From Escherichia phage UB: a stretch of 64,000 bases of DNA. Each line of letters opens with the position of its first letter. Within the stretch, counting starts at the first letter, position 1. Location of the stretch: sequence record MH383160. One strand, 5' to 3'. Both the position numbers and the translations under genes were made by a program. The notes below the pieces were generated by a model that was not told where the DNA came from, made no database searches, and saw only the letters and a list, made by a program, of their open reading frames with translations. Shown in pieces: positions 12,552-53,375 of this stretch.

Positions 12552-12581
12552 ATTATAGCAAAAAGGGTTGACCGAAGTCAA
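12552..12581 (-). promoter_or_regulatory. sigma70-type promoter (TTGACT-N18-TATAAT), -35 inside terminator hairpin
   Basis: Minus strand reads TTGACTTCGGTCAACCCTTTTTGCTATAAT. Confidence 0.5.
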
Positions 12582-17895: not shown

Positions 17896-17923
17896 ATTAT
17901 ACAGTACTGAATGTGTTTGTCAA
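17896..17923 (-). promoter_or_regulatory. sigma70-type promoter TTGACA-N16-TATAAT with CAGTACTG in spacer
   Basis: Minus strand TTGACAAACACATTCAGTACTGTATAAT. Confidence 0.6.
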
Positions 17924-19949: not shown

Positions 19950-20591
19950 TCAATAAAAAACTGGATCTTCTTCAGTAATTGGTATTTCTCTACGCACATC
20001 ACACGAAAGAGGATCAGTAATGAATACATTCCCATCTTTATCCATCATCACATTACTTGAATGAATGTCTGGTACAAAACGCCCGTGAAACTCTTTCATG
20101 ATGTTAGCAGCGACCGTTGCAATAGCAATCTCTTCAGAATTTCCACGCATATCATTCACTGAAGTAGCGTACTGACCAGCATGTGCATAAGAATATAAAT
20201 CTCCAATTTTAGTACTAACAAAGTCATCATAATTATTTTTTTGTTTAATTATAGGATAGTACTTGTCCATCTCATACCATCCAAAGTTTCCTTGTTCGTT
20301 TGCACTGTAAATCACTGGAAGAAACTTGGTTCCTGCGTTTTCAATGCAGTACTTTGCATAAGCACGAAAACCATCCCAGCGTGAAGTGGTTACTTTAAAT
20401 GCACGTCCAGGATAGTTTTTATGTTCAACTACTACAGAGTACATCCCCATTCCAAGCAAAGTAAGTCCAGCAGCTTTAACTTGTGGAAAGATTACGCGTT
20501 CAGCATAAGGAATATCAAACTCCATCGCACAACGAGTTTTTGATGGACGCAAAATGTCAATTAAAGTTTTGAATATTTCTTGCTTAGTCAT
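19950..20591 (-). CDS. protein kinase-like fold protein (putative)
   Basis: DIHSSN (D-x4-N catalytic-loop-like) followed by VFITDP; start moved to ATG 20591 with AGAGGA RBS because ATG 20624 lies inside the promoter -10. Confidence 0.5.
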   Translation of the reverse strand: MTKQEIFKTLIDILRPSKTRCAMEFDIPYAERVIFPQVKAAGLTLLGMGMYSVVVEHKNYPGRAFKVTTSRWDGFRAYAKYCIENAGTKFLPVIYSANEQGNFGWYEMDKYYPIIKQKNNYDDFVSTKIGDLYSYAHAGQYATSVNDMRGNSEEIAIATVAANIMKEFHGRFVPDIHSSNVMMDKDGNVFITDPLSCDVRREIPITEEDPVFY

Positions 20592-20619
20592 TACTTTATC
20601 CTCTGTAGTTAATATCAAC

Positions 20620-20649
20620 ATCATAACAAAAAAGGCTGACCGAAGTCAA
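20620..20649 (-). promoter_or_regulatory. promoter in terminator-promoter cassette (TTGACT-N18-TATGAT)
   Basis: Minus strand TTGACTTCGGTCAGCCTTTTTTGTTATGAT. Confidence 0.45.
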
Positions 20650-24568: not shown

Positions 24569-24683
24569 TTTTATAACTCCTATAAGAGATAAATTTTACT
24601 ATAATATTTATAGTTCCGTTGTCATTTATATCGAATGACATAAAACATTATATCATAATAAGAATGGTTGTCCCAAAGTTAAA

Positions 24684-34007: not shown

Positions 34008-34796
34008 TTAAATGTTAGTAGTATAGTACTTGATTTCGTGTTGAATTGCAAGTTCTATTTGTTTATTGAAAAGAATTCCAAACTCTTTGATTGATTCACA
34101 ATCGAATTCAATAGAAAAAGTATACTCTGGTACACGTAGATTGTCAATCCCCAAATACTCTTTTATGTAAATTTTAATGAGTTTACATAGTGCAGTACTA
34201 AGACATTGAATTTCAAAATGTTTTGCACCTTTGTCAAAATACTTGAATGCATCAATATCACCTACAATAAAACTATTCTTTAATGTAGTGAATAGGTTCT
34301 CAGGAAACACGGTAATAGGTGACATTGATTTAAGAATGTATGTATCTTTGGCATTCTTAATGTACTCAATGAAGCAGTAGTTAACGTCAGGCTCGATTGA
34401 ACGATCCGCGTTATGATACCAGTGTTTAAACTCACTGTATTCAGCAAACTTATGCTGGCGTAATGCGTTACATTCTTCACACAGTGCAGTCATGTTCTCT
34501 TTATCATTACCGCCCTGAAGACAGTCCAGTACATTATGGTCTAACGTCATGCGTACAAGGCGTTTCCCTTTAAGTACATAAGGTCTGAATTTATAACGAT
34601 CTTTAGTACTGTGCTTGTGTAAAGTGAATACTACATTTGATTCACCACAACAATCACATTTAAAGCCATCACGTGACATTACATGAATGAGTTTGCGTGT
34701 GTTCGGTCCAAACTCAGATTTAGTAATGTTATCCACAATTTCTGATGGTTGGTAATATTTTGAATTCCGTTGAATCAGTTCATCGATAGTGCCCAT
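34008..34796 (-). CDS. HNH endonuclease
   Basis: HNH core TLDHNVLDCLQGGNDKENMTALCEECNALRQ. Confidence 0.75.
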   Translation of the reverse strand: MGTIDELIQRNSKYYQPSEIVDNITKSEFGPNTRKLIHVMSRDGFKCDCCGESNVVFTLHKHSTKDRYKFRPYVLKGKRLVRMTLDHNVLDCLQGGNDKENMTALCEECNALRQHKFAEYSEFKHWYHNADRSIEPDVNYCFIEYIKNAKDTYILKSMSPITVFPENLFTTLKNSFIVGDIDAFKYFDKGAKHFEIQCLSTALCKLIKIYIKEYLGIDNLRVPEYTFSIEFDCESIKEFGILFNKQIELAIQHEIKYYTTNI

Positions 34797-35233: not shown

Positions 35234-35297
35234 TGGATATTCCTTAATGGTTAATCATCCATCTCTTCGAGATGTCTGTTCGCTTCTAATACTACGT

Positions 35298-35326
35298 ATT
35301 CTACGCGAATGATTAATAACTGTCAA
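35298..35326 (-). promoter_or_regulatory. sigma70-type promoter TTGACA-N17-TAGAAT
   Basis: Minus strand TTGACAGTTATTAATCATTCGCGTAGAAT. Confidence 0.5.
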
Positions 35327-35339
35327 GGACTTTTAATAT

Positions 35340-35820
35340 TGACGGGATTTGAGGAAGGGATTTTTCTTCCCCCCACAAGGAGGGAAATTTGACGCTGATG
35401 GTATCAGAGCTATTGCATTGAAGATTACTCATAAAGAGTGCGAAAGCGGGTCATCCTGTTTCTCTCTACTTCAGTTTCATATGACGGTCTACACTTTTAA
35501 ACATAGTGTATCTTCATTAAGTATCTATGCAATCAAATACTTAATGTGAGTACTCAAATTTTGGACGCAACTTTCCTGTACAAAATTCGATAACTCTCCC
35601 TTAGATAATTCGTAAGGTGTTATCCTTATATGTCTATCAAGGAACCACCAGCTATCCTAACGTGGTTCTTTATACAGCCGCATTGCCGTGAGGGGTTCAA
35701 ACTATGCCCACATCTAACGGGTTTCTTTTGCTGTTCGCACTGTCGGACTGCTCAACTGCCCTCTACGTTTTCGAGTGGATCAGGTACATAAATATCATGC
35801 CAACAGAATTGTACAAGATA
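35340..35820 (-). ncRNA. candidate structured non-coding RNA (unclassified); strand inferred from promoter
   Basis: ~480 bp with no credible ORF, visibly G+C-richer than surrounding DNA, bracketed by an extended -10 promoter and the next gene's promoter. Confidence 0.3.
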
Positions 35821-35850
35821 ATTATATCACAAACTTTTACTTCATCCCAT
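35821..35850 (-). promoter_or_regulatory. extended -10 promoter (TGATATAAT) reading into the ORF-free block
   Basis: Minus strand TTTGTGATATAAT immediately after the sigma-gene terminator. Confidence 0.4.
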
Positions 35851-35876
35851 AAAAAAAGGTTGGCATAAGCCAACCC
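35851..35876 (-). terminator. intrinsic terminator hairpin, bidirectional
   Basis: GGTTGGC-ATAA-GCCAACC flanked by A7 and T5. Confidence 0.65.
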
Positions 35877-35883
35877 TTTTTCT

Positions 35884-36849
35884 TTAGAAATCTTCGTATT
35901 CGTACCCTTTTGCAAGTACTAGCTTCTTAAGCTTTTGCATAGCTTCACTGTACTTTCGATGTATTGATGAACGGGATTTAACATATTTTCCATTATCATC
36001 AACAAAACCATTATCAGCAATCTCACGAAGCGTTTCAGGTTCATATTCACCTAGACCATGAACACGCTGGATAATCTCACGTTCTTTAGTACTCAATTCG
36101 TTAGTCAGTTCATTGATAGCATAACGTAAAGGTGCACGAATACTATCAACATTGAGGTTAAAATCAGAAGCAGGTGAATGAATAATGTCACCTAGTGTAC
36201 CATCGGTAACACCGTCTAATGGTGCATCCAGCGAAGTGTATTCGCTTTGAAATAACAAACAGTTATTAACATGCTGAATCTCAATCCCAGTACCCTCTGA
36301 GATTATTTCAGGAGTTGGGCGAACACCATGTTTACGCATATATTCCTGACAGAATCTTTTTACTTTGATCTTATGAACACTCATATAACGTGGGAAGTGT
36401 ACCATATAGTTAGCGTCAGAACTTTCGTTATAGACTGTCATGTAAATACTAGAAGAAGCATAGGTAATGAACTTAACATTCTTATTAAGATCAAAGGTTT
36501 TTAGTGCTCTCATGAACCCCTCAACACCATATGAAATCTTATCTTCAAATGGGATATAACAAGTACATTTACTTGCTACATCAATAATCAGTCCATAATT
36601 GTAACGAACTAACAGTTCAGTGTTTTTCTTTACATTGATACCAGCTTGAATATCACGAATTAGATCTTCATTGGAAACATTTGGTGGTCGCTTAAGTGTA
36701 ATATTATATTTGAAACTGCTTTGTACTTTACCTTCATTTTCATCTTTATCTTCAACGAAATCTAAGGCTTCTAGTGTGTTGACTTCTTCATTAGCAAAAC
36801 ATTCATCCAGTACTTCTTCGGCAATTGTATTTAAATCAAGCTTTTTCAC
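35884..36849 (-). CDS. sigma-70 family RNA polymerase sigma factor (phage-encoded)
   Basis: Region-2-like ISYGVEGFMRALKTFDLNKNVKFITYASSSIYMTV and region-4-like KEREIIQRVHGLGEYEPETLREIADN; GTG start with TAGGAGATG RBS. Confidence 0.8.
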   Translation of the reverse strand: MKKLDLNTIAEEVLDECFANEEVNTLEALDFVEDKDENEGKVQSSFKYNITLKRPPNVSNEDLIRDIQAGINVKKNTELLVRYNYGLIIDVASKCTCYIPFEDKISYGVEGFMRALKTFDLNKNVKFITYASSSIYMTVYNESSDANYMVHFPRYMSVHKIKVKRFCQEYMRKHGVRPTPEIISEGTGIEIQHVNNCLLFQSEYTSLDAPLDGVTDGTLGDIIHSPASDFNLNVDSIRAPLRYAINELTNELSTKEREIIQRVHGLGEYEPETLREIADNGFVDDNGKYVKSRSSIHRKYSEAMQKLKKLVLAKGYEYEDF

Positions 36850-36870
36850 TTACATCTCCTAATGACGAAA

Positions 36871-37368
36871 TCAAAATCGATATACATTAATATTATCATC
36901 TGTGAAGCAATCATGGTTGTGCACATCCATGAAAGTACTAAACACTTTATCATATAAAGTTGTATGTTCTTCATGAATAGCAGCATCTAGCATGTATTCT
37001 CCACCACTTCCCATAAAGAAAGTGTAGTCTTCATGTAGATATTCAAGTTTTTTAATAAACTTTCCTTTAGTTAAAATCATATGAATAACATAATCTTTAG
37101 AAAGAAGCACACAATGGCAACTTAACTTTCTGTCAGGTATAACTGGTACTTTATTAATTAACCAATCCAGTACTTTATCAATTTCACTTACTACCCCACT
37201 AGCACTGAATAAACGGTCATGTACATATAAAGTTTTTTGATTAACAACTCCATATTGATATTTTGGTCTTAGTGGGAAAAAACCAAATAAGTTTCGTGGT
37301 ATAGTTGACGTAACTCTAGAATCGGTAATCAATAAATTTAATCGTTTATCAATATAAACAGTTGTCAT
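36871..37368 (-). CDS. hypothetical protein
   Basis: 165-aa ORF. Confidence 0.6.
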   Translation of the reverse strand: MTTVYIDKRLNLLITDSRVTSTIPRNLFGFFPLRPKYQYGVVNQKTLYVHDRLFSASGVVSEIDKVLDWLINKVPVIPDRKLSCHCVLLSKDYVIHMILTKGKFIKKLEYLHEDYTFFMGSGGEYMLDAAIHEEHTTLYDKVFSTFMDVHNHDCFTDDNINVYRF

Positions 37369-37369
37369 A

Positions 37370-37789
37370 TTAAACCTTATCTAAGAATTTATCGTATATA
37401 TAAAATTCTTTATCGGTGAATACATTAATTCTAGTATCGAATCTTTGCATTGTGTTCATATACAATGAACTTTTTAAATAAAAATACAAAGCAACAAATT
37501 CTGATATATGCATATTCTTTTTATTGTTACATAAATTCTTAAGCATTTTGATGCTATCAAATTCTTTTTCATCAAATCTGTATTGGTAAAAATTGTATCT
37601 ATTGGAACGGCACTCATAGATACGAAGTGCCATTATATCAATACATGCTTTAGATTTACAGTACTTATTCAATACGTCATAATCACCCGTACATAATGCT
37701 ACAAAGATTCTATGTGCGAGTGTAGCTTTGCCTTCAATCGTATAATAGCCAAAAAATTTAATGATTAAGTACTGAATGAATGTAATCAT
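37370..37789 (-). CDS. hypothetical protein
   Basis: 139-aa ORF. Confidence 0.6.
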   Translation of the reverse strand: MITFIQYLIIKFFGYYTIEGKATLAHRIFVALCTGDYDVLNKYCKSKACIDIMALRIYECRSNRYNFYQYRFDEKEFDSIKMLKNLCNNKKNMHISEFVALYFYLKSSLYMNTMQRFDTRINVFTDKEFYIYDKFLDKV

Positions 37790-37794
37790 TTGAT

Positions 37795-38055
37795 TTAGAA
37801 TTTCTCCGAAATTACTAGAGTGTCATCATAATCTTCTGCAATATCATGAAGAACTTTTAAGTTACTTTCACCAGAAACGCTTTTTACTTCGTTCAAAAGA
37901 TAGTTTAGATCAACTTTAGTTACTTTTTCTGAATCAAACACACAGAAAGTTAATTCAGCGTTTGGACAGATCTTCTTCAGATTATCAGCAACAACTTGTT
38001 TGAAGTTGAAAGATGGGGAAGCAACCAGGTTAACTGCAACGAGAATAGATTTCAT
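37795..38055 (-). CDS. hypothetical protein
   Basis: 86-aa ORF. Confidence 0.55.
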   Translation of the reverse strand: MKSILVAVNLVASPSFNFKQVVADNLKKICPNAELTFCVFDSEKVTKVDLNYLLNEVKSVSGESNLKVLHDIAEDYDDTLVISEKF

Positions 38056-38129
38056 AATGTTTTCCTTTTTAGCTGATAATTAAATTAGGAGCACATTGTA
38101 CTCCATATTATTTGTTATGTCAAATACTT

Positions 38130-38381: not shown

Positions 38382-38440
38382 AAGTTCCTTACTCTAATTT
38401 GTTTTTAACAAAATAATTATATATAACATACTAAATTATG

Positions 38441-38866
38441 TCAAGTATTTTTAGTACCTTCTTCTGCCATTTTTGTGATATACCAATTAAGTATTGATTT
38501 GTGTACCATAAAAAATGTGAATGCAAATATAGCAATAGCTGCTGATGTAACACTATTAGATAATGACCCAAGTTGGATGTTAGTACCTAAAATAACAATA
38601 AATGGATACAACACAATCAATCTACTGTAAGGTTCGTCTCCAGTATCACGGAGAAATCCAAGCCTTTCATGATCAGTATCCATAGTGACAATTGGACAGA
38701 ACATAAGTGCAGACATAAGAGCAATACCAATTTGTGCTACATTGGAAATTGTAAACCACAAAGGATTTAAACCATATGAAATATTATTTTCTGTACAGTA
38801 GTAACCAAACGAATTGAATGCACAAACTAAAAATACAAAAATACAAATCTTATTATAGCCTCTCAT
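38441..38866 (-). CDS. multi-pass membrane protein
   Basis: Hydrophobic 141-aa ORF. Confidence 0.6.
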   Translation of the reverse strand: MRGYNKICIFVFLVCAFNSFGYYCTENNISYGLNPLWFTISNVAQIGIALMSALMFCPIVTMDTDHERLGFLRDTGDEPYSRLIVLYPFIVILGTNIQLGSLSNSVTSAAIAIFAFTFFMVHKSILNWYITKMAEEGTKNT

Positions 38867-41594: not shown

Positions 41595-41623
41595 TTGGAT
41601 ATGCATAATAAATACGTTATAAT
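41595..41623 (+). promoter_or_regulatory. sigma70-type promoter TTGGAT-N17-TATAAT for the lone plus-strand gene
   Basis: Plus strand TTGGATATGCATAATAAATACGTTATAAT then AATGGAGGG RBS. Confidence 0.5.
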
Positions 41624-41645: not shown

Positions 41646-42800
41646 ATGTCAAGGTCAATTGCTGCGGCTGGACGCTATAAGTTTGGTGAATGTGGTTATG
41701 TTGTTGATGGTGCAATCCTCAATGATGGAACTAGACTAAAAAATATTAGAATCTATCGCCAAAGAAGCCATAGATTATATGATTTAGTTGATCCAAGAAC
41801 TAATATAATATATCGTAAAGTACAAATAACAACTAAAGATAATAAAGGTTATCTATTAAATTACAATAAAACTAATGACCAACTATTAAGTGAAATTAAT
41901 AAAAATTGTTTCTTTGTTCGTGGATATTCTGAAGAGCCACAAGAAACTGATACTGGATTTGTATATAAATTCATGCTACATAAAACAATTTTAGGTAGTT
42001 CACAAACCTTGTATCATATGTATACACCTGAATGTGGTATTATAGATCGTGATATAGATAATATTCTCATTTCACCAGTATTTGTTGGTAATGACTCAAT
42101 TAGTGGTAAATTATTCAACACTGGTTCAGAAATTGATACTAACGGTATGGTAATAACAATCGTATTACCAGACGGGACAGAATACTTTACTACCCAATTT
42201 GTTAATGATGCATTTACAATTCCAGTTGATGTTATCACACAATCAGGGAAAGGTACTGCTACACTCACTTCTCCATATTATAACACTAAAGTGGTGGAAT
42301 TTGATGTTCTTGAAAGTGGTGAGGATATTGATTTTGTTACATCAGTTCTTCTATCCCAATTTGAACCTGTTTCGGAAGGTGTATTTTCTGCGGTTGTTCC
42401 ATTTGATGTTCATGATCGTGGACAGTACTTAGCACTTCAAGCATACAGTGGTGACTTATATCAAGTTGGTGTAGATCTTTCTGTAGACGCAGAAGGTAAT
42501 ATTACTGTGTATCAAACTGACAATTTACCTGTTTCTTTGAGTATAATCGGAAAAACACTGCATACTACTCCTTTCCATAAAGAATATACTTTAAGTGAGT
42601 GGGTTCTCGGTGAAGACTCTATGTACTCTATCTCAGTTCCAGTAACTGAACATGGTAAAGCACTACCACAAGTTCAATTATATTCTTCAGACAATCATGT
42701 AGTTCATAGTGAAATACAAGTGGATGAAGATGATAATGTAATTCTTAAAGTAGTAGAACCGCTTGACTGCTCAGTCGTAATAGTTGGTTACAACGCATAA
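41646..42800 (+). CDS. hypothetical protein (only plus-strand gene inside the minus block)
   Basis: 384-aa ORF with own promoter, strong RBS and terminator. Confidence 0.75.
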   Translation: MSRSIAAAGRYKFGECGYVVDGAILNDGTRLKNIRIYRQRSHRLYDLVDPRTNIIYRKVQITTKDNKGYLLNYNKTNDQLLSEINKNCFFVRGYSEEPQETDTGFVYKFMLHKTILGSSQTLYHMYTPECGIIDRDIDNILISPVFVGNDSISGKLFNTGSEIDTNGMVITIVLPDGTEYFTTQFVNDAFTIPVDVITQSGKGTATLTSPYYNTKVVEFDVLESGEDIDFVTSVLLSQFEPVSEGVFSAVVPFDVHDRGQYLALQAYSGDLYQVGVDLSVDAEGNITVYQTDNLPVSLSIIGKTLHTTPFHKEYTLSEWVLGEDSMYSISVPVTEHGKALPQVQLYSSDNHVVHSEIQVDEDDNVILKVVEPLDCSVVIVGYNA

Positions 42801-48118: not shown

Positions 48119-48208
<90 letters not shown>

Positions 48209-48229
48209 AGAAGTAAGATAACCAACAAG

Positions 48230-48393
<164 letters not shown>

Positions 48394-48436
48394 ATTGACC
48401 TCTTTAGATTAAAACCCCCAGTTTTCTTCTTGAACC

Positions 48437-48534
<98 letters not shown>

Positions 48535-48553
48535 GCATACTCGAAGTACCTCT

Positions 48554-48668
<115 letters not shown>

Positions 48669-48703
48669 ATAAGCTACTGAATCGGGAATCACAACCTCCC
48701 CTC

Positions 48704-48955
<252 letters not shown>

Positions 48956-48967
48956 TTATAATACCTG

Positions 48968-49643
<676 letters not shown>

Positions 49644-49656
49644 TATATCATGTGAA

Positions 49657-49903
<247 letters not shown>

Positions 49904-49904
49904 A

Positions 49905-50421
<517 letters not shown>

Positions 50422-50439
50422 ATACCCAACTTTAATTAA

Positions 50440-50765
50440 AAAAATGGATGGTGACGCTTTTAAACGCCGCTGTTAATTCAGCTTTATAACCATCCGTTTT
50501 AACTTGCCTTTCGGCTACCTTGACGTGGGGCGTACAGGCTGCTAAAAGCAACTTCTGTAAACATATTTCCACGCCTTACCCTTTTAAATAAAAGTCCATC
50601 CGGTTTTCCAGTTTGGTGAAGGACTGTCACCTCTAGTTTCAACCTGCTAGTCAAGTAATAATTGCCTATCGTCCAATTATCAAACCCGTCTAGGTTAACA
50701 TTCACCACTTCCTAGAGTACCAGAGATCTTGTTCTGGATAGCATCGACGTAACTTACACCATATA
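50440..50765 (-). ncRNA. candidate structured non-coding RNA (unclassified)
   Basis: G+C-enriched ~330-bp block with many short inverted repeats; only ORF has an alternative start, no RBS and atypical codons; promoter directly upstream. Confidence 0.3.
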
Positions 50766-50774
50766 CGTCTGATT

Positions 50775-50803
50775 GTGGAATTCATTATATCAGTACTGAA
50801 CTA
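50775..50803 (-). promoter_or_regulatory. extended -10 promoter (TTCAGTACTGATATAAT)
   Basis: TGATATAAT with conserved palindrome in spacer; weak -35. Confidence 0.45.
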
Positions 50804-50992
50804 TTCATCAGTGCTCAAATAAATTGTATCAGTTTTACATTTATACTGAATACGATGATCAATAAACGTACCTTGTTTATAAAGATCTGCATTTTTTACA
50901 TCAGTAATGATTTCAACACCAACATATTGTTTAAAAAGAACTTCTGCTTCTGGATATTGTTTAAGAATTTTAATCAAATCTTTAGCTTTCAT
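50801..50992 (-). CDS. small protein, MKAKDLIK-family
   Basis: N-terminus MKAKDLIKILKQYPEA. Confidence 0.55.
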   Translation of the reverse strand: MKAKDLIKILKQYPEAEVLFKQYVGVEIITDVKNADLYKQGTFIDHRIQYKCKTDTIYLSTDE

Positions 50993-51022
50993 TTAATCCC
51001 ACTCGTTTATGTGTTAAGATAC

Positions 51023-51055
<33 letters not shown>

Positions 51056-51063
51056 CTTTTTTT

Positions 51064-51225
<162 letters not shown>

Positions 51226-51229
<4 letters not shown>

Positions 51230-51390
51230 GTTCGTACCATTATTTCAATAAAGAACCACGGATACGCTTCATGGTTTATAAGTTTATCGTATTCTGCTGG
51301 GTCTGACATGATTTCCCAATGATACTTTCTCCAGTTACCGAAACCTGCATATCTAAAATTAATGTCATTCATCCATTCTTCATGCGTCAT
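51226..51390 (-). CDS. small MTHEEW-family protein (54 aa)
   Basis: N-terminus MTHEEWMNDI. Confidence 0.5.
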
Positions 51391-51441
51391 GGTTTTAACC
51401 TTTAATTAAAATTATCATAGGCATAAATTTAATTACTATCA

Positions 51442-51984
<543 letters not shown>

Positions 51985-51998
51985 AATATTATATTTTA

Positions 51999-52070
51999 TA
52001 AAGGGCCGGAGAATCGAACTCCGATTGGATTCTTAGAAGGAATCTGTTTTATCCATTAAACTAGCCCCTC
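51999..52070 (-). tRNA. tRNA-Arg (anticodon UCU)
   Basis: Acceptor GAGGGGC/GCCCUUU with G-U pairs, D-arm GUUUAAUGGAUAAAAC, anticodon stem GAUUC/GAAUC loop CUUCUAA, T-arm CGGAGUUCGAUUCUCCG. Confidence 0.7.
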
Positions 52071-53091: not shown

Positions 53092-53193
<102 letters not shown>

Positions 53194-53198
53194 TCTTA

Positions 53199-53375
53199 CT
53201 ATTTTTTGTCTCTAATAGCAAGCTCGTAGATGAACCAGTGGTTGGAATCTTCGTCCAAAACCAATGATTCGAACGTTTTTTTATCGTTCAAAACATCATA
53301 ATGGCCTTGGCGTATACCAAATCCAAAATGATCATGTTTATATTTTAGTGACTCTATCCATTCTTCATGTGTCAT
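53199..53375 (-). CDS. small MTHEEW-family protein
   Basis: Start set to ATG 53375 (MTHEEWIESL); listed start is TTG. Confidence 0.5.
   Translation of the reverse strand: MTHEEWIESLKYKHDHFGFGIRQGHYDVLNDKKTFESLVLDEDSNHWFIYELAIRDKK

What the first reader, a model, noticed from the sequence alone, without database searches (positions are those of the whole stretch)
35884..36849. Phage-encoded sigma-70 family sigma factor
Clear region-2 and region-4 signatures in a 321-aa protein with an N-terminal acidic extension. This implies a programmed switch of host RNA polymerase specificity; the promoter class it recognises is not the consensus sigma70-type promoters seen across this window and may lie elsewhere in the genome.
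Basis: partly seen in the sequence, partly recalled or inferred. Interest (0 to 1): 0.5.

Follow-up and report, generated by a model that had tools for sequence, protein, structure and literature searches.

The report
Jumbo-phage sigma factor, probable middle-gene switch
The gene is a real sigma-70-family sigma factor of a PBECO4/121Q-type jumbo coliphage, already annotated in public records, and comparative promoter analysis points to a genus-specific 'G[GA]GACA–16 nt–TGnTATAAT' promoter class in front of replication genes and the late-sigma gene as its likely target.

Summary
Window 35884-36849 (minus strand) encodes a 321-aa sigma-70-family protein. Pfam region 3 passes its cutoff, and regions 2 and 4 miss theirs by about 1 bit. 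PHROG_351 scores E=3e-60, PDB RpoD/SigA chains score E~1e-17, and the fold search returns only sigma factors.

The protein is not new. An identical sequence is already annotated as a sigma factor in PBECO4/121Q-type (Asteriusvirus) jumbo phages, and reviews call it a hallmark of this phage group. I found no experimental study of it.

It is an early gene, lying in an operon behind consensus sigma70 promoters. The window has 32 such promoters on the coding strand and 1 on the other.

The promoter-reading parts are diverged. The W433/W434 equivalents are lost, and the region 4.2 helix-turn-helix carries a family-specific 8-aa insertion with changed recognition residues.

The close relative 121Q has three promoter classes:
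- early: TTGACA
- a second class: G[GA]GACA-N16-TGnTATAAT, 20 sites, all on the coding strand, placed before ssb, primase, topoisomerase, DNA polymerase and the gp55-like late sigma gene
- late: T4-like TAAATA

At orthologous positions in other genera the -35-like box changes together with the sigma's recognition helix. No MotA or AsiA homologue was found.

My best reading is a middle-gene sigma in a three-sigma cascade. This is inferred, not shown.

The parts
35884..36849 (-). Coding sequence of the 321-aa sigma-70-family sigma factor (GTG start, TAA stop)
   Evidence: ORF list. Profile and structure hits. 100% identical to cluster P0001, which its sources name 'sigma-70 family RNA polymerase sigma factor'.
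36703..36849 (-). N-terminal acidic extension, residues 1-49 (net charge -9). It holds the conserved motif MKKLDLNxIxxEVLDECF followed by a variable acidic linker.
   Evidence: Charge count. pLDDT below 50 with a helix at 6-18. Conservation of K2, L6 and F18 across genera. No Pfam Sigma70_r1_1 or r1_2 hit.
36409..36684 (-). Sigma2 domain (regions 2.1-2.4), residues ~56-147. The equivalents of F419, K426, F427, T429, Y430 and A431 are kept. Those of Y425, W433, W434, Q437, T440 and R441 are replaced by V, S, S, M, Y and N.
   Evidence: Pfam r2, residues 80-140. HMMER alignments to RpoD/SigB chains ('kfstyatwwirqaitr' against 'kfityasssiymtvyn'). Family alignment.
36235..36408 (-). Sigma3 domain (regions 3.0-3.1), residues ~148-205. 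The H455 equivalent is Y here (H in RaK2 and Mimasvirus), and the E458 equivalent is V.
   Evidence: Pfam Sigma70_r3, 37.8 bits over residues 162-226. Alignment.
35911..36135 (-). Sigma4 domain (regions 4.1-4.2), residues ~239-313
   Evidence: Pfam r4, residues 251-279. AF2 helices 234-249, 254-264, 274-280 and 293-313.
35977..36000 (-). Family-specific 8-aa insertion (residues 284-291, DDNGKYVK) in the turn of the region 4.2 helix-turn-helix. It is predicted to form a small beta-hairpin.
   Evidence: Present in every phage family member and absent from E. coli sigma70 and from all the nearest cellular sigmas, which read ...TRERIRQ. AF2 strands at 281-282 and 288-289.
35929..35976 (-). Region 4.2 recognition helix SRSSIHRKYSEAMQKL. 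R584 is kept, while E585, R586, R588 and Q589 become S, S, H and R.
   Evidence: Alignments. These residues co-vary with the -35-like box across genera.
36856..36860 (-). Shine-Dalgarno AGGAG, 6 nt before the GTG start
   Evidence: Sequence.
35851..35880 (-). Intrinsic terminator directly after the stop codon (stem GGTTGGC/GCCAACC, loop TTAT, T7 tail)
   Evidence: Sequence. The scan found the same hairpin. It is annotated as a terminator in phage G17.
38095..38123 (-). Nearest upstream sigma70-type promoter (TTGACA-17-TACAAT, 11/12). It heads the four-gene operon 37795-38055, 37370-37789, 36871-37368 and the sigma gene.
   Evidence: The genes are tightly packed with no terminator between them.
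38416..38444 (-). Second upstream sigma70 consensus promoter (TTGACA-17-TATAAT, 12/12)
24647..24674 (-). Class-2 candidate target promoter inside the window: GGGACAACCATTCTTATTATGATATAAT
   Evidence: It corresponds to 121Q site 101440.
53184..53212 (-). Class-2 candidate target promoter inside the window: GAGACAAAAAATAGTAAGATAAATATAAT (spacer 17)
   Evidence: It corresponds to 121Q site 72641.
35821..35848 (-). Near-match to class 2 just downstream of the sigma gene's terminator: GGGATG-N16-(TG)ATATAAT
   Evidence: Sequence. It is a 4/6 match to GGGACA, so its status is uncertain.

Best explanation
The gene encodes a virus-specific member of the sigma-70 family with sigma2, sigma3 and sigma4 domains. 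It has no region 1.1/1.2 and no non-conserved region. It belongs to a PBECO4/121Q-type jumbo myovirus that has no RNA polymerase of its own.

Proposed mechanism, step by step:
1. Shown by sequence context: the gene is transcribed early by host sigma70 holoenzyme, as the last gene of a four-gene operon behind consensus TTGACA/TATAAT promoters and ahead of a strong terminator.
2. Inferred from homology: the protein binds host core RNA polymerase in place of sigma70.
3. Inferred from comparative genomics: the new holoenzyme reads a second promoter class, A-rich upstream tract, then G[GA]GACA(A), then 16 nt, then (TG)nTATAAT. In this class only the -35 hexamer differs from host-type promoters.
4. 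This class sits in front of ssb (a tandem pair), primase, exonuclease, topoisomerase II, DNA polymerase and the gp55-like late sigma gene. The result would be a three-step cascade: host sigma70, then the RpoD-like phage sigma (middle genes), then the gp55-like sigma (late genes, TAAATA promoters).
5. The altered region 4.2 (recognition helix SRSSIHRKY plus an 8-aa insertion in the HTH turn) would supply the new -35 specificity. The conserved sigma2/sigma3 part would read the conserved extended -10.

Functionally this replaces what MotA/AsiA sigma appropriation does in T4.

My confidence that the protein is a functional sigma factor using host core is about 0.9. My confidence that class 2 is its cognate promoter class is about 0.55-0.6.
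For: Family membership is shown.

Early expression context:
- The window has 32 coding-strand matches of at least 11/12 to the sigma70 consensus, against 1 on the other strand and about 3 per strand in shuffles.
- Promoters lie at 38123 and 38444, and a terminator at 35851-35880.
- In 121Q, sigma70-type sites cluster at 50-160 kb, around the sigma gene.

A distinct second class exists in 121Q:
- Among NNGACA-N16-18-TAnAAT sites on the coding strand, NN is TT 44 times, GG 12 times and GA 8 times. Every other dinucleotide occurs 3 times or fewer.
- The pattern G[GA]GACA-N16,17-TA[TC]AAT gives 20 sites on the coding strand and 0 on the other, against a shuffle mean of 0.5.
- 17 of the 20 sites have a spacer of exactly 16.
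- GGGACA is the most enriched hexamer (26-fold) at 15-19 nt upstream of -10 elements.
- The sites precede ssb, primase, exonuclease, topoisomerase II, the gp55-like sigma gene and DNA polymerase. For CBB, the literature likewise places the gp55-like gene behind a 'divergent RpoD-like' promoter (PMC5259590).

Co-variation at orthologous promoters (hexamer at the 16-nt register, then the sigma's helix):
- 121Q: G[GA]GACA, helix SRSSIHRKY.
- TH47: GAGACA or AGGACA, helix ARSSLHRKY. Its sigma is only 59% identical overall.
- EJP2: GAGACA, helix NRCTIHRRY. Its sigma is only 36% identical overall.
- RaK2-like: TGAAC[AG], helix VRGTLHYKF. It has 25 sites on the coding strand and 3 on the other, and zero G[GA]GACA sites.
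- CBB: (T)GAAAC[GA], helix SKATLSRRY.

In every genus the extended -10 TGnTATAAT and the TTGACA early class stay the same. All the hosts are Enterobacterales. By my own knowledge their sigma70 region 4.2 is conserved, so a phage-encoded reader is required.

Primase identity to 121Q is about 64-66% for EJP2, CBB and RaK2 alike. The promoter box therefore follows the helix residues rather than overall distance.

A G at the first box position coincides with Arg at the Q589-equivalent residue in four taxa. T coincides with Tyr in RaK2 and with Gln in sigma70.

The box sits at the canonical -35 spacing, and an A-rich UP-like tract lies upstream.

No T4 AsiA or MotA homologue is found in six-frame ORFs of the 121Q and RaK2-like genomes (phmmer, E<=10).

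Only three promoter classes emerge, and two of them already have assigned sigmas: host sigma70, and the gp55-like protein (PHROG 'late sigma').
Against: - There is no experimental evidence for core binding, timing of expression or promoter use, either for this protein or for any homologue found in the searchable literature.
- The class-2 -10 element is a perfect sigma70 extended -10. Yet the phage sigma has lost residues that sigma70 uses there: W433/W434 become S/S, Q437 becomes M, T440 becomes Y, E458 becomes V, and the region 1.2 core is not detectable. Host sigma70 reading the -10 while another phage protein reads the box therefore remains possible.
- The co-variation rests on five taxa, which amount to about three independent states. 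The base-to-residue assignments come from my recollection of sigma70/-35 structures, not from a model of this protein on DNA.
- The third box position does not track the R588-equivalent residue cleanly. RaK2 has H with A, while 121Q has H with G.
- The whole-genome promoter analysis was done on relatives (121Q and others), not on the genome the window comes from, and it used my own crude ORF calls.
- The MotA/AsiA search was at sequence level only.
Confidence: 0.6

Rival explanations
1. Sigma-appropriation-like mechanism. Class-2 promoters are read by host sigma70, which recognises the extended -10. An unidentified, genus-specific phage DNA-binding activator binds the -35-like box, as MotA/AsiA do in T4. 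The RpoD-like sigma would then serve some other promoter set that I did not detect.
For: The class-2 -10 is an ideal sigma70 extended -10 (TGnTATAAT) in all genera. The phage sigma lacks W433/W434, Q437 and T440. The genomes encode hundreds of uncharacterised small early proteins. In Mimasvirus a small HTH regulator gene lies just upstream of the sigma gene. [quoted passage not shown]
Against: No AsiA or MotA homologue is found in 121Q or the RaK2-like genome. The box sits at the canonical -35 distance of 16-17 nt, not at the -30 MotA-box position. The box varies in step with the sigma's recognition-helix residues, including the EJP2 and TH47 controls. This rival would leave the conserved sigma without any detectable promoter class.
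Confidence: 0.2
2. General sigma70 substitute. The phage sigma replaces an inactivated host sigma70 and reads all TATAAT-type phage promoters, both TTGACA early and class 2, so there is no separate 'middle' specificity.
For: Both classes share the same extended -10 and an A-rich upstream tract. The window also encodes a T7 gp0.7-like kinase family protein, annotated as an inhibitor of host transcription (phrog_15752, E=1e-98).
Against: The -35 hexamer distribution is sharply bimodal (TT against G[GA]) and the two classes have different genomic distributions. The recognition helix differs from sigma70 at four of the five base-contacting positions. TTGACA is invariant across genera while the second box is not.
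Confidence: 0.1
3. Not an initiating sigma at all. It would be a decoy or competitor that occupies host core polymerase to shut off host transcription, or a degenerate remnant.
For: Core-binding region 2.2 is altered (DLIQEG becomes DKISYG) and the Trp dyad used in melting is lost. Pfam r2 and r4 fall just below their cutoffs.
Against: All three DNA- and core-binding domains are retained. The full-length protein is conserved over at least four genera down to 31-36% identity, including the HTH and its insertion. That is purifying selection on the DNA-reading parts. Many group 3 sigmas also lack the Trp dyad (my own knowledge).
Confidence: 0.05

Closest known systems
RpoD-like sigma factor of RaK2-like ('group 2.2') jumbo phages (PBECO4, 121Q gp167, phAPEC6, Sharanji RpoD, RaK2 ORF244, GAP32_490, CBB_513)
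   Same: It is the same gene: 99-100% amino-acid identity to PBECO4, phAPEC6, 121Q and G17. It is an orthologue at 31-45% identity in RaK2, Munch, GAP32, CBB and XbC2. The genomic setting is the same, among small early genes.
   Different: Nothing differs at the level of the object. The published records only annotate it (PMC11895373, PMC7247149, PMC13070987, PMC7824862, PMC5259590). No function, target promoter or structure has been reported in the literature I could search.
Bacterial group 1/2 sigma factors (E. coli sigma70 RpoD, sigmaS)
   Same: These are the best sequence and fold matches. The order sigma2-sigma3-sigma4 is the same, and the helix cores of regions 2.1-2.2, the F419 and Y430 equivalents, the region 3 fold and the region 4 HTH are conserved.
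   Different: Scores fall far below the equivalog cutoffs (88 bits against 354 for RpoD_Cterm). There is no region 1.1, no detectable region 1.2 and no NCR. W433/W434, Y425, Q437, T440, E458, E585, R586, R588 and Q589 are replaced. There is an 8-aa insertion in the HTH turn. A clear score gap (118 to 88 bits) separates the phage family from all cellular sigmas.
T4 middle-promoter system (AsiA + MotA sigma appropriation)
   Same: The logic of the promoters is the same: keep a sigma70-type -10 and exchange the -35 for a phage-specific box in front of replication genes. Both belong to T4-related myoviruses that also use a gp55-type late sigma.
   Different: No AsiA or MotA homologues are found. 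The box lies at the canonical -35 spacing rather than at -30. A complete extra sigma is encoded instead.
Bacillus phage SPO1 gp28 and coliphage phiEco32 gp36 (phage-encoded sigmas that redirect host core polymerase to middle/late genes)
   Same: The strategy is the same: an early-expressed phage sigma replaces the host primary sigma on host core (SPO1: PMC13401047 abstract; phiEco32: PMC12276001 and PMC8948821 abstracts).
   Different: These are unrelated or very distant sigma lineages (small, group 4-like or highly diverged), and their promoters differ from the host consensus in both elements. Here only the -35 box differs, and the protein is RpoD-like with a sigma3 domain.
'Divergent RpoD-like promoters' of CBB and GAP32 (TGAAACG + TATA)
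   Same: This is the same promoter class as my class 2. It lies upstream of DNA-synthesis genes and the gp55-like gene (PMC5259590), and I confirmed it at orthologous sites.
   Different: The box sequence differs by genus. The paper did not attribute the class to the phage sigma or compare genera.

Membership tests
Sigma-70 family (Pfam Sigma70_r2/r3/r4; NCBIfam TIGR02937) | Sigma2 domain (regions 2.1-2.4) homologous to the family | tested here: met
   Pfam r2 E=7e-5, 23.0 bits, 1 bit under the gathering cutoff of 24. HMMER alignments to more than 50 PDB sigma chains cover this region at E down to 5e-17. AF2 and Foldseek agree.
Sigma-70 family (Pfam Sigma70_r2/r3/r4; NCBIfam TIGR02937) | Sigma4 helix-turn-helix domain (regions 4.1-4.2) | tested here: met
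   Pfam r4 E=3e-5, 23.8 bits against a cutoff of 24.1. The match covers only residues 251-279 because of the HTH insertion. The recognition helix aligns after the 8-aa insertion. AF2 shows helices at 274-280 and 293-313.
Sigma-70 family (Pfam Sigma70_r2/r3/r4; NCBIfam TIGR02937) | Whole-protein score above a curated family threshold | tested here: met
   TIGR02937 44.7 bits against 42.9. Sigma70_r3 37.8 bits against 25.3.
Sigma-70 family (Pfam Sigma70_r2/r3/r4; NCBIfam TIGR02937) | Binds core RNA polymerase and confers promoter-specific initiation | not testable with these tools
   This needs reconstitution or a pull-down. No published experiment was found.
Group 1 primary sigma (RpoD equivalog) | Score above the RpoD equivalog cutoffs, and presence of regions 1.1 and 1.2 | tested here: not met
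   RpoD_Cterm 88 bits against 354. PRK05658 64 bits against 555. There is no Pfam Sigma70_r1_1 or r1_2 hit.
Group 1 primary sigma (RpoD equivalog) | Conserved promoter-reading residues (W433/W434, Q437, T440 and the TRERIRQ recognition helix) | tested here: not met
   These are S/S, M, Y and SRSSIHR respectively. The roles of these residues come from the established sigma70 literature (my own knowledge).
Group 4 (ECF) sigma | Two-domain architecture (sigma2 + sigma4 only, no sigma3) | tested here: not met
   A significant Sigma70_r3 domain is present.
T4 gp55-type late sigma | Homology to gp55 (PHROG 'late sigma transcription factor') | tested here: not met
   The window protein hits only phrog_351. 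The gp55-like protein is a separate gene elsewhere in the genome (121Q gene 591; phrog_12791 and phrog_234).
RaK2-like jumbo-phage RpoD-like sigma clade (phrog_351 subset) | Orthology with the annotated sigma of PBECO4, 121Q, RaK2 and GAP32, including the family-specific N-terminal motif and the HTH insertion | tested here: met
   100% identity to P0001. 99-100% to PBECO4, phAPEC6 and 121Q. Full-length alignment with RaK2, Munch, GAP32, CBB and XbC2, with shared MKKL(D/N)L...ECF and G[FY]xDxxGK motifs. It forms a separate cluster of about 18 representatives.

The most novel reading that the evidence does not exclude
The RpoD-like sigma of RaK2-like jumbo phages is the middle-gene specificity factor of a three-sigma cascade (host sigma70, then the phage RpoD-like sigma, then the gp55-like sigma). 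It reads promoters that keep the host-type extended -10 but carry a -35 hexamer that has been re-coded genus by genus (GGGACA, TGAACA, GAAACG) together with the sigma's own recognition helix and a unique HTH-turn insertion. That would make it a natural series of orthogonal sigma4/-35 pairs working on E. coli-type core polymerase, and a sigma-replacement alternative to T4's MotA/AsiA appropriation within the same broad phage lineage.
Probability: 0.55. Interest if true: 0.55.

Novelty: already known. Interest (0 to 1): 0.35.

Why it matters
The existence of this sigma factor is already recorded, so the finding as written adds little. What is still unknown is what the protein does.

RaK2-like jumbo phages have no RNA polymerase of their own, and nobody has shown how they order the expression of about 600 genes. 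The comparative analysis here gives a concrete, cheap-to-test prediction: a defined promoter class, defined target genes that include the late sigma gene, and defined residues.

If the prediction is right, two things follow:
- These phages would have a full sigma cascade on host core polymerase.
- They would supply several naturally orthogonal sigma4/-35 pairs that work in enterobacteria. Those are useful for synthetic gene circuits and for understanding how -35 readout evolves.

Tried and rejected
- I searched the window for the CBB-type box (TGAAACG/GAAACG) and found no enrichment. The two 'ATCGAAACG' copies next to promoters are 5'-UTR sequence.
- The word-indexed protein search missed the RaK2 and GAP32 orthologues. 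I recovered them by tblastn against phage records.
I repeated the test with the true T4 AsiA and MotA sequences by phmmer on six-frame ORFs of two genomes and got no hits. This is sequence-level only, so structural analogues are not excluded.
- Host alternative sigmas (sigma32, sigmaE, sigma28, sigma54) were considered as readers of class 2 and rejected. Their -10 elements do not match TGnTATAAT, and the box changes between phages of hosts with the same sigma repertoire (my own knowledge).
- The 'CTTGCA' hexamer enriched in 121Q turned out to be 16 near-identical early promoters (TTGCAA-N16-TATAAT with an A-tract) at 137-155 kb. They are not a separate specificity class.
- Rfam and RNA-folding checks of the ORF-free gap downstream of the gene gave nothing significant.
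- Pfam and PHROG scans of the operon neighbours gave only unknown-function families.
- Literature searches for experiments on this sigma, or for transcriptomics of Asteriusvirus, found none.
Full report
**What is at the coordinates.** Window 35884-36849 is an ORF on the minus strand: 321 aa, GTG start. An AGGAG Shine-Dalgarno sequence lies 6 nt upstream. A textbook intrinsic terminator (GGTTGGC-TTAT-GCCAACC-T7, 35851-35880) follows the stop codon directly.

Profile searches place the protein in the sigma-70 family:
- Pfam Sigma70_r3: 37.8 bits, above its 25.3 cutoff.
- Pfam Sigma70_r4: 23.8 bits against 24.1.
- Pfam Sigma70_r2: 23.0 bits against 24.0.
- NCBIfam TIGR02937: 44.7 bits against 42.9. 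The best-scoring model is RpoD_Cterm at 88 bits, far below its 354-bit equivalog cutoff.
- PHROG_351 'RNA polymerase sigma factor': E=2.6e-60.
- More than 50 solved RpoD/SigA/SigB/RpoS chains: E down to 5e-17.

An AlphaFold2 model gives confident sigma2 (~60-147), sigma3 (~154-200) and sigma4 (~234-313) domains. Residues 1-49 and the 3.2 linker are disordered (mean pLDDT 72). Its 50 best PDB fold matches are all sigma factors. The N-terminal 49 residues carry 14 acidic and 5 basic residues.

**Where it comes from, and whether it is known.** A 3-kb stretch around the gene is 98.5-99.5% identical to Asteriusvirus jumbo coliphages (BAU.Micro_ELP-22, JP4, PBECO4, G17, 121Q, phAPEC6, Sharanji). Nearly all of them annotate this ORF as an RNA polymerase sigma factor.

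The protein is 100% identical to a public cluster named 'sigma-70 family RNA polymerase sigma factor'. Full-length orthologues exist in RaK2 and K64-1 (44%), Munch, EJP2 and Hallingskeid (36%), GAP32, CBB and BF (35%), and XbC2 (31%). An exhaustive search shows a compact family of about 18 representatives at 50% identity. A score gap (118 to 88 bits) separates it from the roughly 19,000 cellular sigma hits.

[quoted passage not shown] These lack their own RNA polymerase and are presumed to redirect host core enzyme (PMC7824862; PMC7598289; PMC11895373; PMC7247149 and PMC13070987). I found no experiment on this protein or its orthologues and no Asteriusvirus transcriptome. As an object it is already known. 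Its function is unproven.

**Anatomy of the protein.** I aligned the family with E. coli sigma70. HMMER alignments to PDB RpoD/SigB chains confirm region 2, and the nearest cellular homologues confirm region 4. The roles of the sigma70 residues named here come from the established sigma70 literature, that is, my own knowledge.

In regions 2.3/2.4, the equivalents of F419, K426, F427, T429, Y430 and A431 are kept. The Trp dyad W433/W434 is replaced by small residues in every family member (SS, TT, AA, SA). Y425, Q437, T440 and R441 are V, M, Y and N here, although Q437 is retained in Mimasvirus and Munch. In region 3.0, the H455 equivalent is Y (H in RaK2 and Mimasvirus) and the E458 equivalent is V.

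In region 4.2, the cellular 'TRERIRQ' recognition helix reads 'SRSSIHR'. R584 is kept, while E585, R586, R588 and Q589 are changed. All family members, and none of the nearest cellular sigmas, carry an 8-aa insertion (G[FY]xDxxGKxV context) in the HTH turn. AF2 predicts it to be a small beta-hairpin.

There is no region 1.1 or 1.2 profile hit. However, the first ~20 residues (MKKLDLNxIxxEVLDECF) are conserved across genera. The protein is thus RpoD-like in overall sequence but carries its own promoter-reading surfaces.

**Genomic context.** The window from 8.2 to 64 kb is a run of small minus-strand genes. It holds 32 coding-strand matches of at least 11/12 to the sigma70 consensus, against 1 on the other strand and about 3 per strand in shuffles. 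This is an early region read by host sigma70 holoenzyme.

The sigma gene is the last of four tightly packed genes behind promoters at 38123 (11/12) and 38444 (12/12). Its neighbours belong to unknown-function PHROGs. The window also encodes a member of the T7 gp0.7-like kinase family, annotated as an 'inhibitor of host transcription', at 19950-20624 (phrog_15752, E=1e-98).

**Which promoters might it read?** The window shows no alternative motif enrichment. I therefore assembled the genome of the close relative 121Q (348.5 kb).

Sigma70-type sites number 107 on the coding strand and 14 on the other, and they cluster at 50-160 kb. K-mer enrichment in upstream regions also revealed a T4-late-like [ACT]TAAATA element: 24 observed against 1.9 expected. 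It lies 25-35 nt before capsid, portal, tail and baseplate genes and before the RCC1-like paralogues. This matches a separate gp55-like sigma gene, 121Q gene 591 (phrog_12791 and phrog_234).

A third class appeared in front of replication genes:
- Among NNGACA-N16-18-TAnAAT sites on the coding strand, NN is TT 44 times, GG 12 times and GA 8 times. Every other dinucleotide occurs 3 times or fewer, and the opposite strand has 4 sites in total.
- The pattern G[GA]GACA-N16,17-TA[TC]AAT occurs 20 times on the coding strand and never on the other, against a shuffle mean of 0.5.
- 17 of the 20 sites have a spacer of exactly 16.
- The consensus is an A-tract, then tGgGACAAa, then N, then gTGaTATAAT.
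- GGGACA is the most enriched hexamer at the -35 position of -10 elements, at 26-fold.
- The sites precede ssb (a tandem pair), primase, an exonuclease, topoisomerase II, DNA polymerase, the gp55-like late sigma gene and others, and they are spread across the genome rather than sitting in the early cluster.

Two full copies (24674, 53212) and one near-copy just after the sigma gene's terminator (35848-35821) lie in the window.

**Co-variation test.** If a phage factor reads the box, the box should change with that factor.

| Phage | Sigma identity to the window protein | Recognition helix | -35-like hexamer (16-nt register) |
|---|---|---|---|
| 121Q | ~99% | SRSSIHRKY | G[GA]GACA |
| TH47 (Asteriusvirus) | 59% | ARSSLHRKY | GAGACA / AGGACA |
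| EJP2 | 36% | NRCTIHRRY | GAGACA |
| RaK2-like (OU509535.1) | 44% (RaK2) | VRGTLHYKF | TGAAC[AG] |
| CBB (Mimasvirus) | 35% | SKATLSRRY | GAAAC[GA] |

- **RaK2-like genome.** It has the same TTGACA early class (33 to 40 sites, depending on the pattern used) but no G[GA]GACA sites. Instead it has tTGAAC[AG]AA-N-TGATATAAT, with 25 sites on the coding strand and 3 on the other, against a shuffle mean of 2.3. The same pattern in 121Q is at chance level. These sites occupy the same positions as in 121Q: a tandem pair before ssb, and single sites before the exonuclease, the nudix gene, g565 and the DNA polymerase operon.
- **CBB.** The orthologous sites read (A)TGAAAC[GA]-N13-TG[GA]TATAAT, again with a tandem pair before ssb. 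This agrees with the 'divergent RpoD-like promoter' reported for CBB and GAP32, one copy of which precedes the gp55-like gene (PMC5259590).
- **Two controls.** TH47 and EJP2 have sigmas that are only 59% and 36% identical overall, but they keep R584, H588 and R589 in the recognition helix, and both keep the GAGACA-type box.

Primase identity to 121Q is about 64-66% for EJP2, CBB and RaK2 alike. The box therefore follows the recognition-helix residues, not general divergence. The extended -10 and the early TTGACA class are constant throughout. All the hosts are Enterobacterales, and by my own knowledge their sigma70 region 4.2 is conserved, so a phage-encoded reader is needed. T4 AsiA and MotA have no detectable homologue in 121Q or the RaK2-like genome.

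**Interpretation and its limits.** The most economical reading is a three-sigma cascade:
1. Host sigma70 transcribes the early region, including this gene.
2. The RpoD-like sigma joins host core and reads class-2 promoters through its re-coded sigma4. This switches on replication genes and the gp55-like sigma gene.
3. The gp55-like sigma reads the late TAAATA promoters.

Shown here are family membership, the early-type context, the existence and strand specificity of the three classes, their gene associations, and the cross-genus co-variation. Inferred are core binding, timing, and the assignment of class 2 to this protein.

The main weakness concerns the -10 element. The class-2 -10 is an ideal sigma70 extended -10, yet this sigma lacks several residues that sigma70 uses there. 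Host sigma70 together with an unidentified box-binding phage protein therefore remains a serious rival; I give it about 0.2. The whole-genome analysis used relatives and crude ORF calls, and the co-variation amounts to about three independent states.

**Verdict.** The gene itself is already annotated and discussed, so its novelty as an object is nil and its interest is moderate to low (0.35). The added value is a specific, testable assignment of a promoter class and of recognition residues.

Noticed in passing
window minus strand, -35 hexamers at 12581, 14752, 16034, 27417: There are four near-identical copies of GGGTTGACTTCGGTCAGCCCTTTTTGCTATAAT. Each is a GC hairpin plus T-run (terminator-like) whose stem contains a TTGACT -35, followed 18 nt later by TATAAT. 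They appear to be compact terminator/promoter fusions. The same k-mers (GACTTCGG, GGTTGACT) are the most enriched in 121Q upstream regions.
   Followed up: partly
window minus strand promoters at 17923, 29189, 33502, 50041, 51054; also 121Q and RaK2-like genomes: Many early TTGACA promoters share the spacer sequence (tt)CAGTACTGTATAAT. The palindromic AGTACT core is conserved in the promoter consensus of both 121Q and the RaK2-like phage. It may be an operator for shutting off early transcription, or a modification site.
   Followed up: no
window 1-8222, plus strand (ORFs 908-2083, 2093-3280, 4552-5721, 5793-6998 and others): This is an array of paralogous ~390-aa genes, annotated as RCC1-like 'chromosome condensation' proteins in 121Q. 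Each gene is preceded by a GCCAGTACT...AGTACTGGC hairpin with a T-run and then TTAAATATAGTATAAT, a late-type promoter.
   Followed up: partly
window 35234-35883: About 650 nt downstream of the sigma gene's terminator have no credible ORF on the coding strand. GC rises to 48% (35625-35774) against a background of ~32%, and the RNA fold z-score is -2.06. There is no Rfam match at E<=0.01. The stretch is also unannotated in 121Q. It could be a non-coding RNA or a remnant linked to the adjacent HNH endonuclease gene at 34008-34796.
   Followed up: partly
window 48130-52070, minus strand: Rfam calls a cluster of five tRNA genes inside the early region. 121Q annotates eight tRNA genes across the corresponding region.
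   Followed up: no
window 19950-20624, minus strand: This 224-aa protein belongs to phrog_15752 (E=1e-98), whose description is 'protein kinase; inhibitor of host transcription' (T7 gp0.7-like). It is a second candidate host-transcription takeover function in the same early region.
   Followed up: partly
window 41646-42800, plus strand, with ATAAATAC at 41608: A lone opposite-strand gene sits inside the early region. It is annotated in 121Q as a virion structural protein with an Ig domain, and it has its own late-type promoter about 30 nt upstream of the start.
   Followed up: no
121Q (L009/L010) 137.5-155 kb, outside the window: There are about 14 near-identical promoters, aaaaagtaCTTGCAA-N-GCGTATAATgttttacatc, in front of tiny genes separated by unusually long spacers. 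They are probably an immediate-early promoter repeat family.
   Followed up: partly
L007 5189+5264; RaK2-like 261370+261450; L021 ~9745+9832; L026 ~643+739: A tandem pair of class-2 promoters about 75-90 nt apart lies upstream of the ssb gene. The pair is conserved in four genera even though the box sequence itself differs.
   Followed up: yes
Literature: PMC13070987: The fEgEco12 paper lists its sigma factor Gp519 as 'completely absent' from Ecwhy_1. However, tblastn finds a full-length 59%-identical sigma gene in Ecwhy_1 (1665-2630). This suggests either an annotation or threshold artefact, or a second sigma copy in fEgEco12.
   Followed up: no
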